Origin: Flavobacterium sp.
GTDB lineage: Bacteria > Bacteroidota > Bacteroidia > Flavobacteriales > Flavobacteriaceae
Length of the DNA stretch: 64,000 nucleotides
Assembly: GCF_044371705.1 (NCBI RefSeq)
Contig: NZ_JBILTE010000001.1
Location: forward strand, 2,570-66,569
Reading direction: 5' to 3'
Part shown: positions 1 through 55,311 of the stretch, one piece after another
Layout of the letters: the number at the start of each line of letters is the position of its first letter
Numbering within the stretch: the first letter of the stretch is position 1
The notes under the pieces: model-generated
Told to the model about the DNA's origin: nothing
Databases searched by the model: none
The model's input: only the letters and a program-made list of their open reading frames with translations
Made by a program: the position numbers and the translations under genes

Positions 1-132
1 TTAAGGTTTTTTTTACTAAGTCTTATTAAGAGAGTCTTTTGACAGAATATAAACTGAAATATTTTTAAACATTATGAATAAAAGAATGTATCAGTAATAT
101 TCGTTAAGAAATGTTGTGATTAGAAAATTAAA

Positions 133-537
133 TTAAGGTTCAAGCATTTTAAAATACTCATTTACCAATGGCTTAACTGATTTTGTAATATTATCAGTAT
201 AAAAATTTATTAACAATCCTTGAGGCTTTTCAAGCAAGCTCATGTACGTTAATAATTGAGCTTCATGGACAGGAAGCAAACTTTCAATCGATTTTATTTC
301 AACAATCACTGTATTATTTACAATTAAATCGAGTCTTAACTCTGTTTCAATCAATAAATCTCTATACTCTAGTTTAACTTTTCTCTGGGTTTCAACATAA
401 AAACCATTATACTCTAACTCTTTTGCAAGACATTTTTCATAAACTGATTCAAGTAAGCCGGGACCCAATGTTTTGTGAACGGAAATCGCACAACCAACAA
501 TATCATAACTTAATTAGGTTACCTCTTTTTTTGTCAT
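133..537 (-). pseudogene. GxxExxY protein (PD-(D/E)XK nuclease-like) interrupted by an in-frame TAA at codon 8
   Basis: Reading from ATG at 537 gives MTKKEVT*LSYDIVGCAISVHKTLGPGLLESVYEKCL..., in frame with the 133..468 ORF. The GxxExxY motif (GLLESVY) and a D-x-I-V-E-x-K core (RLDLIV...IVEIK) are present. The stop is at 514..516. Confidence 0.8.
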
Positions 538-563
538 ATTTATTGAATAAAAAATGGAGTTAA

Positions 564-633
564 AATTAAGGTTGTTAAATAGATTTTAAACTTAATTCCC
601 TTAATGAACCAACCTTAATTCCTTAATGTTAAG
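564..633. repeat. Degenerate CTTAAT/ATTAAG short-repeat cluster with an 11-bp inverted repeat
   Basis: CTTAAT occurs at 591, 600, 614 and 622. AATTAAGGTTG (564..574) is the reverse complement of CAACCTTAATT (610..620). AATTAAGGTT recurs at 131..140 and TTAAGGTT at 1..8. Confidence 0.7.
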
Positions 634-634
634 A

Positions 635-2938
635 CTATACGGTTACCAAACTATTCGGCTCCACCAAAATTTCTTTTCCGTTAACAAAAACAATAATAGG
701 TTTATTTCCTTCCAACGAAAACTTTGTTTCATTAGATTGAACTGAAACTTTTAAAATTTGATTTCTGAAATTAATTTTAAATGAAAATCCTTTCCATTGT
801 GATGGAATTTTTGGATCAAAATGTAAAGCTTCATTTTTCACACGCATGCCACCAAAACCTTCTACAATACTCATCCATGTTCCGGCCATTGAAGTAATGT
901 GTAAACCTTCGTGCACTTCTTTATTGTAATCATCTAAGTCCAAACGGGAGGTTCGTAAATAAAAGGTGTACGCTTGTTCCATTCTGCCTAAACCAGCCGC
1001 TTGGATTGAGTGAACACAAGGGGAAAGTGAACTTTCATGAACGGTAAACGGCTCATAAAAATCGAAATGTTTTTCCAATTGTTCTTTGCTGAAATGGTCT
1101 TCAAAGAAGTAAAATCCTTGCAAGGTGTCTGCCTGTTTGATGTAAGGCGAACGCAAAATTCTGTCCCAAGACCATTTTTGATTAATGGGTCGCTGACTTT
1201 TATCTAAATCAGTAACTTTTACTAGTTCTTTATCTAAAAACCCATCTTGTTGCAAATAGACATCATGTTCTTCCGAATAGGGAAAATACATATTGTCTGC
1301 TACTTCTTTCCAATGATTGATTTCTGATTGCGAAAGTTTTACTTTATTTAAAATTCGGGTATAATCAGTTGAATACTCTTTTTCGATTTTATTAATCTGT
1401 TGCACTGTATAATCAATACACCATTTCGCAATATAATTGGTATAGAAATTATTGTTCACATTGTTTTCATATTCATTCGGACCGGTAACACCTAATATTA
1501 CATATTGATTTCTATAGGTTGAATAGGTGGCTCTTTGATGCCAAAAACGGGCAATTCCGATTAAAACTTCTAGCCCTTTTTCAGGAATATAGCTGTAATC
1601 TCCGGTAAAACGGTAATAATTAAATATAGCAAAAGCAATAGCTCCGTTTCGATGAATTTCTTCAAAGGTAATTTCCCATTCATTGTGACATTCTTCGCCG
1701 TTCATCGTTACCATTGGATACAAAGCTGCTCCGTTTTTGAAACCTAATTTCCCTGCATTTTCAATGGCTTTATCCAATTGATTATACCGATAGGTCAGTA
1801 AATTTCTAGCCACTTGCTGGTCTTTGGTTGCCATATAAAAGGGAATGCAATAAGCTTCCGTATCCCAATAAGTTGACCCACCATATTTTTCGCCGGTAAA
1901 TCCTTTTGGGCCAATATTTAAGCGAGAATCTTTTCCAAGATACGTTTGATTGAGTTGAAAAATATTGAAACGAATACCTTGCTGAGCTTTCACATCGCCA
2001 TCGATGGTAATATCACTCATTTCCCAAATTTTTGCCCAAGCTTTGATTTGATTTTCAAGTAATTTGTCGTAACCTATTTTTAAGGCATCAGCAATTGCTT
2101 TTTGAGCAGCTATTTGTGTGTTTTCATGATTCATGGAAACCGTGTATCCGCCTATTTTTTGAATTGTTGTAGTTTGATTTTTGGAAATAGATACTTCATA
2201 TGAAAATTCAATGGTTTCATTGGAAGACGCAACATTGAAAGGCGATGTATTTACAGATATACCATCAACCAAAATGGTGTTTTGCATGAAAGTAGTTGCT
2301 GTAAAATGTGTTTTGAATGTTCTTGCGGTTACGAAAGCTTCGTTTCCATTGTTTTTAACTTCTAATGGTTCCCAGAATTTTTCTTCCCAGTTGGCATCTT
2401 CGTTATGCACGCCGGCATCAATATAAGGTTTGAAAACAATTGTAGTATCCTGATTTAATGCAGTTATTTGATAATTAATCACACCTACTTCATCCAAATC
2501 AATGGAAAGAAAACGACGCACTTGCACCTCAATTTCGGTTCCGTTTTGAAGAATTGCATTAAAAGAGCGATGGTACCATCCTTCTTTCATGTTTAATTCT
2601 CTGCGAAAACTTTTCACGGCTACACAGTTGGCTAAATCTAAATTTTCGCCGTTGATTTCGATATTGATTCCAATCCAATTGGGGGCGTTCAATACTTTGG
2701 CAAAATATTCCGGATAACCGTTTTTCCACCAACCTACTTTTGTTTTATCGGGATAGTAAATTCCGCCGATATAACTACCTTGGAATGTTTTTCCGGAGTA
2801 GTATTCTTCAAAATTCGCACGTTGTCCCATCGCACCGTTTCCAATGCTGAACAAACTTTCAGAAGACTTAACCAGGTCTTGCTCAAATCCTTCTTCAATA
2901 ATCGACCAGTTATCTGGTTTTATATAATCTTGGTTCAT
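635..2938 (-). CDS. Glycoside hydrolase family 65 protein (maltose phosphorylase-like)
   Basis: 767 aa with GH65 motifs GPKGFTGEKYGGSTYWDTE, GPNEY and KQAD; adjacent to beta-PGM. Confidence 0.92.
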   Translation of the reverse strand: MNQDYIKPDNWSIIEEGFEQDLVKSSESLFSIGNGAMGQRANFEEYYSGKTFQGSYIGGIYYPDKTKVGWWKNGYPEYFAKVLNAPNWIGINIEINGENLDLANCVAVKSFRRELNMKEGWYHRSFNAILQNGTEIEVQVRRFLSIDLDEVGVINYQITALNQDTTIVFKPYIDAGVHNEDANWEEKFWEPLEVKNNGNEAFVTARTFKTHFTATTFMQNTILVDGISVNTSPFNVASSNETIEFSYEVSISKNQTTTIQKIGGYTVSMNHENTQIAAQKAIADALKIGYDKLLENQIKAWAKIWEMSDITIDGDVKAQQGIRFNIFQLNQTYLGKDSRLNIGPKGFTGEKYGGSTYWDTEAYCIPFYMATKDQQVARNLLTYRYNQLDKAIENAGKLGFKNGAALYPMVTMNGEECHNEWEITFEEIHRNGAIAFAIFNYYRFTGDYSYIPEKGLEVLIGIARFWHQRATYSTYRNQYVILGVTGPNEYENNVNNNFYTNYIAKWCIDYTVQQINKIEKEYSTDYTRILNKVKLSQSEINHWKEVADNMYFPYSEEHDVYLQQDGFLDKELVKVTDLDKSQRPINQKWSWDRILRSPYIKQADTLQGFYFFEDHFSKEQLEKHFDFYEPFTVHESSLSPCVHSIQAAGLGRMEQAYTFYLRTSRLDLDDYNKEVHEGLHITSMAGTWMSIVEGFGGMRVKNEALHFDPKIPSQWKGFSFKINFRNQILKVSVQSNETKFSLEGNKPIIVFVNGKEILVEPNSLVTV

Positions 2939-2954: not shown

Positions 2955-2982
2955 AAGTTTCAAGTTTCAAGTTTCAAGTTTT
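2955..2982. repeat. Tandem heptamer repeat (AAGTTTC)x3 plus one near-perfect copy
   Basis: AAGTTTC AAGTTTC AAGTTTC AAGTTTT lies in the pgmB-GH65 spacer. Confidence 0.9.
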
Positions 2983-3022
2983 TGTTGAATAATTTTAAAA
3001 TCCCGAAAACTTTAATTTTTTA

Positions 3023-55252: not shown

Positions 55253-55311
55253 GGAAGATGGGAGATGGAAGACGGAAGAAAACTTCCTGCTTCACACTTC
55301 ACTCTTCCTGC
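55253..55311. repeat. Two inverted arrays of four heptamers (GGAAGAN x4 / CTTCMNN x4)
   Basis: GGAAGAT GGGAGAT GGAAGAC GGAAGAA AA CTTCCTG CTTCACA CTTCACT CTTCCTG fills most of the fbaA-accD spacer. Confidence 0.85.

What the first reader, a model, noticed from the sequence alone, without database searches (positions are those of the whole stretch)
1..634. Solitary GxxExxY nuclease-like gene bracketed by its own family of short direct and inverted repeats
Seen in sequence: ATTAAG/CTTAAT-type units cluster in both flanks (positions 1, 25, 104, 132 | 565, 591, 600, 614, 622, 629). AATTAAGGTT sits on the stop codon (131..140) and again upstream (564..573). There is an 11-bp inverted pair (564..574 / 610..620) and a near-duplicated 15-16-mer (591..606, 614..628). 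The gene lies directly downstream of the GH65 gene but has no carbohydrate role. Established: GxxExxY proteins are an uncharacterised PD-(D/E)XK-like family. Inference: gene plus repeats form a compact, transposase-free insertion unit that drops into operon spacers, with the repeats acting as recognition sites or an RNA scaffold. The repeat arrays at 2955 and 55253 may be empty or related sites of the same class.
Basis: partly seen in the sequence, partly recalled or inferred. Interest (0 to 1): 0.7.

Follow-up and report, generated by a model that had tools for sequence, protein, structure and literature searches.

The report
Repeat-armed GxxExxY nuclease gene cassette
A small nuclease gene bracketed by mirror-image rows of TTAAG repeats was inserted between two starch-use genes of a lake Flavobacterium; it belongs to a little-described class of gene-plus-repeat cassettes that may explain both an orphan protein family and many intergenic repeats.

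Summary
TTAAG/CTTAA units occur 10 times in 248 non-coding bases, against 1.8 in shuffles (0 of 2000 reach 10).

The feature is a 642-bp cassette spanning window -11..630, so it runs off the window's left edge. It holds a GxxExxY (PF13366/TIGR04256, Cas4-like PD-(D/E)XK) gene between inverted arms of four phased TTAAG units. It fills the GH65-GH13 spacer of a maltose operon.

- **Insertion:** the three closest relatives have 58-75 bp spacers without the cassette.
- **Other sites:** the same gene clade with the same arms sits at four or more other spacers in the genus. One is hemA|hemC, where the ancestral state is overlapping stop and start codons.
- **Arms track the protein:** arm word maps onto the protein tree with the minimum possible number of changes.
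- **Gene-less copies:** at least 7 TTAAG hairpins without a gene exist in this genome.
- **The in-frame TAA:** it is a young polymorphism. Near-identical strains carry CAA.

How the cassette moves is not shown. An RNA-stem role found no support.

This scan has noted such cassettes many times on other DNA. I found no paper that describes them. The nearest published systems are Ssn nucleases with their repeats and REP/RAYT.

The parts
1..30 (-). Outer 3' arm of the cassette. It holds four CTTAA-type units, one of them decayed to CTTAGT. The arm continues to window -11 (C26:2558), and its terminal 20-mer is the inverted partner of 611-630.
   Evidence: The best ungapped inverted match of the two flanks is 18 of 20, score 15. 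The sequence beyond the window edge was read. An 18-mer is shared with the gene-less hairpin at G000:C13.
102..138 (-). Inner, decayed 3' arm that starts on the stop codon. In sense it reads CCTTAAT, then TCTAAT, then CTTAAC.
   Evidence: Read from the sequence. Intact relatives have their 3' arm 1-3 nt after the stop.
133..537 (-). GxxExxY / PDDEXK_3 nuclease gene, 134 codons plus the stop. The catalytic set E30, D70, E80, K82 is present.
   Evidence: Pfam and NCBIfam matches. Invariant columns in a 30-sequence alignment. AlphaFold model with pLDDT 95. The best PDB fold match is Cas4 SSO0001.
514..516 (-). In-frame TAA at codon 8. It is a polymorphic nonsense allele: other strains have CAA (Gln), which is the clade consensus.
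   Evidence: A>G at window 516 in contigs of runs X8 and X12, while X1 and X2 keep TAA. The exact 134-aa Q8 protein is called on 4 read contigs of other samples. L111 and L112 are 99.1-99.5% identical and carry C on the sense strand.
564..574 (-). Single 3'-type unit upstream of the ATG.
   Evidence: DNA fold of 538-640 gives -10.3 kcal/mol, z = -2.05. The same layout is seen in L031 and L037.
591..630 (-). 5' arm with four TTAAG units. It starts 4 nt after the GH65 stop codon.
   Evidence: The same 4-unit AACATTAAG variant occurs in the gene-less hairpins at G000:C13 and C277.
635..2938 (-). GH65 (maltose-phosphorylase-type) gene. It is the upstream host gene, not part of the element.
   Evidence: Pfam GH65 N, central and C domains; NF010380 at 1168 bits.

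Best explanation
Window -11..630 is one copy of a repeat-armed GxxExxY cassette. It carries a 134-codon Cas4-like PD-(D/E)XK nuclease gene between two inverted arms, each built of phased TTAAG words (8-10 bp spacing in the canonical three-unit relatives). It was inserted into the spacer between the GH65 and GH13 genes of a maltose operon and points the same way as the operon, so it is most likely transcribed by read-through. Shown: gene and arms are gained, lost and relocated as one block, and the arm word tracks the protein clade. The same arms also exist as gene-less hairpins, which are frequent mainly in genomes that hold this gene clade. Inferred: the nuclease recognises its own arm words on DNA. 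Breaks made at cognate hairpins or arms are then repaired from a gene-bearing copy, with the arms serving as homology (a homing-like copy-in). Under this reading, insertion needs no transposase, and different hairpin families replace one another exactly between the arm ends. This particular copy is young and is just starting to decay: a nonsense allele is segregating, one arm unit has degenerated, and an inner 3' arm is eroded.
For: Identity of the gene. Arms: 18 of 20 inverted termini, score 15, against 500 control genes of the same genome (median 8.5; 0.4% reach 15). The 32 genus cassettes have a median of 19. Insertion: the three closest relatives (GH65 C-terminal 440 aa 95-96% identical) have 58-75 bp spacers holding unrelated hairpins. 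On the GH65 tree the filled state needs 6 changes (at least 4 forced), and a single clade is rejected at p-AU 1.6e-67. Relocation: the same clade (60-71% aa) with the same ACCATTAAG...CTTAATGGT arms lies after GH13, between hemA and hemC, and at another site. At hemA|hemC, seven species have overlapping TAATG stop/start, so the occupied state is derived. Co-variation: 8 arm-word types map on the protein tree with 7 changes, the minimum possible (shuffled mean 16.3; 0 of 200 as low). Gene-less copies: at least 7 TTAAG hairpins in G000, one with perfect 27/27 arms. Of the genomes with this gene clade, 13 of 14 have >=10 arm matches, against 18 of 107 without it. DNA level rather than RNA level: 29 G-T against 30 A-C mismatches. 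Orientation: 31 of 32 upstream and 30 of 32 downstream neighbours are co-directional. No promoter or terminator signal above chance. Exact swap between the ACCAT...ATGGT ends in G008 against G098, whose hemA ends are 98% identical.
Against: No movement was seen between near-identical strains: all 99%-identical contigs are filled and no skipping joint appeared. No target-site duplication was found. The GxxExxY tree does not reject one ancient insertion per site (p-AU 0.33 and 0.42), so the moves may be few and old. Arm-protein co-variation could be plain linkage. Eighteen genomes have many TTAAG hairpins but no cognate gene. Hairpin families such as TCGCAAAG in G000 have no gene at all. Unrelated four-helix-bundle genes sit in the same kind of frame, so the nuclease is not needed for the frame to exist. 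A PD-(D/E)XK nuclease alone cannot join DNA. No biochemical data exist for this family.
Confidence: 0.5

Rival explanations
1. The phased-word hairpins are the primary entity. They are either intercistronic elements kept by the host or mobilised by some other enzyme. GxxExxY and four-helix-bundle genes are then mere passengers lodged in or beside hairpins, with no recognition between protein and arms.
For: Gene-less hairpins far outnumber gene-bearing ones, and many word families in G000 have no gene. Eighteen genomes are rich in TTAAG hairpins without the gene clade. Six of six four-helix-bundle genes have analogous frames built from other words. The same spacers hold a hairpin of some family in most species. 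G000 has 3 Y1-transposase genes that could act in trans.
Against: Arm word and protein clade match perfectly over 8 word types. Arm abundance is strongly associated with presence of the cognate gene clade (13 of 14 against 18 of 107). The catalytic residues are invariant, which argues for a selected activity. One trans-acting enzyme could hardly serve ten or more unrelated words.
Confidence: 0.25
2. This is an Ssn-like arrangement. The protein would be a host-serving, sequence-specific nuclease whose targets are the dispersed cognate hairpins, for example on single-stranded or incoming DNA. The repeats around its own gene would then be regulatory or incidental, and the cassette would not spread by its own action.
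For: The published precedent is Ssn: GIY-YIG nuclease genes flanked by their own hairpin repeats on both sides in 42% of homologues, with repeat-rich genomes usually holding the gene (PMC11893778). The same two associations are seen here.
Against: The gene shows patchy presence, several copies of different clades per genome, nonsense alleles and relocation between spacers. This looks like a dispensable or selfish gene rather than a maintained host function. The fold also differs.
Confidence: 0.15
3. This is an RNA-level element like the ORF-bearing intervening sequences of 23S rRNA. The arms would pair in the operon transcript, and RNase III would cut the stem and release or silence the inserted ORF.
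For: The architecture (an ORF between long inverted arms, co-oriented with the host transcript) resembles rRNA intervening sequences. Their ORFs belong to the four-helix-bundle family that shares this frame type (recalled knowledge of intervening sequences).
Against: There is no excess of G-U-compatible mismatches on the sense strand (29 against 30). There is no Rfam match. In this copy the arm pairing is weak (18 of 20 outer; local stem z = -2.05). Spacers between the words are often not complementary.
Confidence: 0.07

Closest known systems
Ssn nucleases with their NTS/SRM repeats (PMC11893778)
   Same: Both have a small nuclease gene flanked on both sides by its own hairpin-forming repeat. 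In both, the same repeat is dispersed gene-less in the genome, and repeat abundance is correlated with presence of the gene.
   Different: Ssn has a GIY-YIG fold, whereas this is a Cas4-like PD-(D/E)XK. Ssn repeats are single short hairpins, not inverted arrays of 3-4 phased words. Ssn activity (ssDNA cutting) has been shown; here there are no biochemical data.
REP/REPIN elements with RAYT genes (REPtrons; PMC3116915, PMC3733652, as named in earlier scan notes)
   Same: Both have a single gene bracketed by inverted copies of a palindromic repeat that also occurs many times without the gene in extragenic spaces.
   Different: RAYT is an HUH/Y1 transposase able to cut and join ssDNA. The gene here is a nuclease with no known joining activity. 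The arms here are AT-rich phased words, not REP hairpins. G000's own Y1 genes lie elsewhere.
Free-standing homing endonuclease genes (recalled knowledge: phage seg/mob genes, PD-(D/E)XK I-Ssp6803I)
   Same: Both are nuclease genes wedged between conserved genes, with filled and empty alleles, patchy distribution and a degeneration cycle.
   Different: Homing genes have no inverted arms and no gene-less derivatives. Cutting of an empty allele has not been tested here.
ORF-bearing 23S rRNA intervening sequences (recalled knowledge; PMC4990558 named in an earlier scan note)
   Same: Both have a small ORF enclosed by long inverted arms inside a transcribed unit. The four-helix-bundle family of those ORFs shares this frame type in G000.
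   Different: This element lies in a protein-operon spacer, not in rRNA. There is no sign of selection on an RNA stem.
MITEs and their parent insertion sequences
   Same: Both have terminal inverted repeats, gene-less short derivatives, and intergenic landing.
   Different: Here there is no transposase and no target-site duplication was found. The arms are arrays of words rather than a single repeat.

Membership tests
GxxExxY protein family (TIGR04256 / Pfam PF13366 PDDEXK_3) | Profile score above the curated cut-off | tested here: met
   TIGR04256 scores 137.2 bits (cut-off 35) and PF13366 scores 134.7 bits (cut-off 22).
GxxExxY protein family (TIGR04256 / Pfam PF13366 PDDEXK_3) | GxxExxY motif and the PD-(D/E)XK catalytic D...ExK | tested here: met
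   G27-E30-Y33, D70, E80 and K82 are invariant in 30 sequences and present in the window copy.
GxxExxY protein family (TIGR04256 / Pfam PF13366 PDDEXK_3) | Restriction-endonuclease-like (Cas4/RecB-type) fold | tested here: met
   AlphaFold model with pLDDT 95 and pTM 0.88. The best PDB match is Cas4 SSO0001 (E 1.8e-3, TM 0.56), followed by lambda exonuclease and Hjc. Weak Cas4 profile hits were also found.
REPtron (RAYT gene flanked by REPs) | The enclosed gene is a Y1/HUH transposase (PF01797) | tested here: not met
   The enclosed gene is PF13366. The PF01797 genes of G000 are at C84, C4 and C86, not here.
REPtron (RAYT gene flanked by REPs) | Inverted copies of a dispersed palindromic repeat on both sides of the gene | tested here: met
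Ssn / SRM system | GIY-YIG nuclease | tested here: not met
   No GIY-YIG match was found; the fold is PD-(D/E)XK.
Ssn / SRM system | The gene is flanked by its own repeat, and the repeat is abundant in genomes that hold the gene | tested here: met
Ssn / SRM system | Site-specific cleavage of single-stranded DNA at the repeat | not testable with these tools
   Needs enzyme assays.
Insertion sequence / MITE | Transposase (DDE, Y1, serine or tyrosine type) in the autonomous copy | tested here: not met
   GxxExxY is the only ORF with a family match in the 642-bp unit; the others are short and unannotated.
Insertion sequence / MITE | Target-site duplication at the junctions | tested here: inconclusive
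   No direct repeat was seen outside the arms in filled-versus-empty comparisons. However, no pair is close enough to align the spacers base by base.
Homing endonuclease gene | Filled and empty alleles of one site among relatives | tested here: met
Homing endonuclease gene | The nuclease cuts the empty allele | not testable with these tools
   Needs assays.
23S rRNA intervening sequence | Located within the 23S rRNA gene and excised from the RNA | tested here: not met
   It lies between GH65 and GH13. No Rfam match. No strand bias in arm mismatches.
Intrinsic terminator | G+C-rich stem followed by a T run | tested here: not met
   Zero terminator-like sites in L004:2450-3300.

The most novel reading that the evidence does not exclude
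GxxExxY cassettes, and the parallel four-helix-bundle cassettes, would be an undescribed superfamily of transposase-free elements with palindromic arms. Each protein clade would recognise its own phased arm word. The nuclease would trigger copying of the cassette into cognate hairpins. The decay products would be the abundant 7-9-bp phased intergenic repeats of Flavobacterium and many other bacteria.
Probability: 0.2. Interest if true: 0.85.

Novelty: new variant of a known kind. Interest (0 to 1): 0.6.

Why it matters
PF13366/TIGR04256 is a large protein family found in prokaryotes and viruses (PMC3424549), and no function is assigned to it. Phased short repeats between Flavobacterium genes are likewise unexplained. 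Tying the two together gives both a concrete hypothesis that can be tested: a small nuclease with a programmable arm word of 5-9 bp. If the nuclease does read its arm word, the many clade/word pairs would form a natural library of sequence- or structure-specific nucleases, as was argued for Ssn. It would also show how selfish DNA can colonise the tightest operon junctions, even overlapping stop/start codons, without a transposase.

Tried and rejected
1. **RNA-stem selection.** I counted mismatch types between the arms in 32 cassettes. There were 29 G-T/T-G against 30 A-C/C-A, so no strand bias. The Rfam scan was empty.

2. **Old pseudogene.** Rejected. The TAA is polymorphic, and the Q8 protein is on record elsewhere. 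The long end branch of this copy on the protein tree (0.48, against 0.11-0.14 for most clade mates and 0.35 for L038) therefore cannot be put down to pseudogene decay and stays unexplained.

3. **Many genus copies carry an in-frame TAA.** Mostly an artefact. In 14 of the 19 loci that could be read (of 20 fetched), the 'internal' stop is the true stop of a shorter protein. Only 5 have real internal stops.

4. **Site history from the protein tree.** One clade per site is not rejected (p-AU 0.33 and 0.42), so repeated independent insertion at one site is not shown.

5. **Recent transfer between G094 and G050.** The cassette is 0.89 identical, against 0.83 and 0.76 for the flanks. This is suggestive only.

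6. **Within-species empty allele.** No skipping joints were found in four metagenome runs. The exact-protein look-up of GH65 found nothing.

7. **Other searches.** There is no solved close homologue, no defence-system family beyond weak Cas4 similarity, and no promoter or terminator signal.

8. **Literature.** Searches for GxxExxY, PF13366, Flavobacterium palindromic repeats and intervening-sequence proteins found no description of the cassette.

9. **Chance.** Rejected by shuffles and by genome-wide density.

Full report
**Observation.** The non-coding part of the GH65-GH13 spacer (248 nt) holds 10 TTAAG/CTTAA units. Dinucleotide shuffles give 1.8 +/- 1.3 (max 7; 0 of 2000 reach 10). The genome averages 0.40 per 250 nt, and this locus is among the ~10 densest of 21,033 windows. 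The ORF at 133-537 (minus strand) is a GxxExxY/PDDEXK_3 protein. The genes upstream on the same strand are an MFS transporter, beta-phosphoglucomutase and GH65. The window is G000:C26:2570-66569. Reading the contig beyond the window edge shows a GH13-like gene starting at window -19.

**Anatomy.** In the gene's sense, the element has these parts:
- The 5' arm starts 4 nt after the GH65 stop. It is window 630..591 and holds four TTAAG units.
- A lone 3'-type unit follows at 574..564.
- The ATG is at 537.
- The ORF ends in a unit that supplies the stop codon, and this unit begins an eroded inner 3' arm (138..102).
- About 70 nt further on lies the outer 3' arm (30..-11), which ends 7 nt before the GH13 ATG.

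The outer 20-mers of the two arms are 18 of 20 inverted. The unit is therefore 642 bp and fills almost all of the 653-bp spacer.

**The protein.** A 30-sequence alignment has invariant G27, E30, Y33, D70, E80 and K82, all present here. The AlphaFold model is confident (pLDDT 95). Its best PDB match is Cas4 SSO0001, followed by lambda exonuclease, Hjc and splicing endonucleases. There is no close solved homologue. Codon 8 is TAA, where clade mates have CAA. Contigs of two independent runs carry G at window 516 (= CAA), and two others keep TAA. The exact 134-aa Q8 protein is called on 4 read contigs from other samples. L111 and L112 are 99.1-99.5% identical to the locus and carry CAA. The stop is therefore a young, segregating allele in a lake-water population.

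**Insertion, not ancestry.**
- A DNA search of 120 genomes of the genus shows that the three closest relatives (GH65 C-terminal 440 aa 95-96% identical) have spacers of 58-75 bp. These hold unrelated hairpins of other word families.
- Five more distant species have a GxxExxY gene of the same clade (60-70% aa) at this spacer.
- On a GH65 tree the filled state needs 6 changes (at least 4 forced by strong branches), and one clade is rejected (p-AU 1.6e-67).
- Filled G103 is sister to G041, which keeps TTAAG arms but has another hairpin in place of the gene.

**The cassette moves as a block.**
- The 14 closest homologues in the genus all carry arms of the form ACCATTAAG-(2)-ATTAAG-(4)-ATTAAG ... 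mirror image, with spacings of 8 and 10.
- They lie at four or more kinds of site: GH65|GH13, after GH13, hemA|hemC, and one other.
- At hemA|hemC, seven species have overlapping TAATG stop/start codons. The many occupied states are therefore derived. These include gene-less CATATAAG hairpins (five in tandem in G105), gene-less TTAAG hairpins, TTAAG cassettes and a CACGAATTT hairpin.
- G008 and G098 are 98% identical at the hemA end, yet they differ by an exact swap between the ACCAT and ATGGT ends.

**Arms track the protein.**
- Over 32 cassettes, the 8 arm-word types map on the protein tree with 7 changes, the minimum possible (shuffled mean 16.3; 0 of 200 as low). The caveat is that gene and arms are linked, so this alone does not prove recognition.
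- All 32 have inverted arms: median score 19, and 75% reach 15. For 500 ordinary G000 genes the median is 8.5, and 0.4% reach 15.
- G000's two other GxxExxY genes (C42, C246) have arms of other words.

**Gene-less copies.**
- G000 has at least 7 gene-less TTAAG hairpins. One has perfect 27/27 arms. Two share the 4-unit AACATTAAG variant of this cassette.
- In the genus, 13 of 14 genomes with this gene clade have 10 or more arm matches (median 21.5). Among those without it, 18 of 107 do (median 1). Fisher p = 2.5e-8, but the kin are not independent.
- Those 18 genomes, and word families without any gene in G000, show that hairpins persist without a cognate gene.

**Level of action.**
- Mismatches between the arms are 29 G-T type against 30 A-C type. 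No sense-strand RNA stem is under selection.
- There is no Rfam match and no terminator or promoter signal above chance.
- The gene is co-directional with its upstream neighbour in 31 of 32 loci and with its downstream neighbour in 30 of 32. This fits expression by operon read-through.

**Wider class.** All six four-helix-bundle (TIGR02436) genes of G000 are framed by inverted phased-word arrays of other words. One word, GTTTCAAG, is that of the array at window 2955, which has only a decayed partner. The 55253 array is a GGAAGA/TCTTCC hairpin. They belong to the same broad class but are not empty TTAAG sites.

**Mechanism.**
- Shown: block-wise gain, loss and relocation; arm-protein concordance; gene-less derivatives; DNA-level symmetry.
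- Inferred: the nuclease reads its arm words, and breaks at cognate arms are repaired from a gene-bearing copy.
- Against: no move was seen among near-identical strains. No target duplication was found. One old insertion per site is not rejected. A non-nuclease cargo also uses the same type of frame.

**Known relatives and novelty.** Literature searches found no description of this cassette. PF13366 is listed with unknown function (PMC3424549). The nearest published logic is Ssn with its repeats (PMC11893778) and REP/RAYT. This scan has flagged such cassettes many times on other DNA. I re-tested the main claims here independently.

**Verdict.** It is a new variant of the nuclease-plus-own-repeat kind.

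Noticed in passing
G000:C10:5676-6002, C216:3101-3421, C199:1788-2108, C247:237-557, C245:3124-3414, C172:31988-32290: All six four-helix-bundle (TIGR02436) genes of this genome sit between inverted arrays of phased short words. Each uses a different word: CCTTAGT, GTTTCAAG, GTTGCGGG, GTTTAAA, GTTGTA and TCAAAAATCAA.
   Followed up: partly
window 2955-3015: A GTTTCAAG x3-4 direct array lies between the GH65 start and the beta-phosphoglucomutase stop, with only a decayed inverted partner (AATCCCGAAAACTT). The word is the one that frames the four-helix-bundle gene at C216.
   Followed up: partly
window 55253-55311: A GGAAGA / TCTTCC phased-word hairpin of yet another family.
   Followed up: no
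L063 (G105 hemA|hemC spacer): Five tandem copies of a CATATAAG-type hairpin fill a spacer that is zero-length (overlapping TAATG) in seven other species.
   Followed up: no
G000:C96:2686-2735 and C43:2744-2850: Two pure tandem arrays: (CTTAATA)x7, and a 15-mer GGTTTCAAGTTTAAG x7. Both contain the same words as the hairpin arms but have no inverted partner.
   Followed up: no
G000:C4:18371-19070: A Y1-transposase (PF01797) gene lies next to a G+C-rich hairpin. This may be a separate REP/RAYT-like system in the same genome. Two more PF01797 hits are at C84 and C86.
   Followed up: no
L004:700-2550 versus L009-L013: The GH13 gene after GH65 in G000 and its three closest relatives is only ~40% identical to the GH13 gene at that position in other species of the genus. 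The downstream neighbour was therefore exchanged or rearranged in this lineage.
   Followed up: no
L034 (G090), L091 (G012), L094 (G019), L092, L095, L105: Other GxxExxY copies in the genus carry true in-frame stops. Examples are TGA inside the GPGLLE motif, a stop replacing the catalytic E of ExK, and CAA>TAA at codon 4. This suggests recurrent decay.
   Followed up: partly
L004:3201-3211 (loose ends in run X8): The same metagenome holds contigs of a related strain or species whose GH65 end is followed by a TCGCAAAG-type hairpin instead of this cassette.
   Followed up: no
L052 (G040) and G000:C42:2620-3154: The same spacer in two species holds GxxExxY genes of different clades with different arm words (CACAGAG against CACGGATTT).
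   Followed up: no
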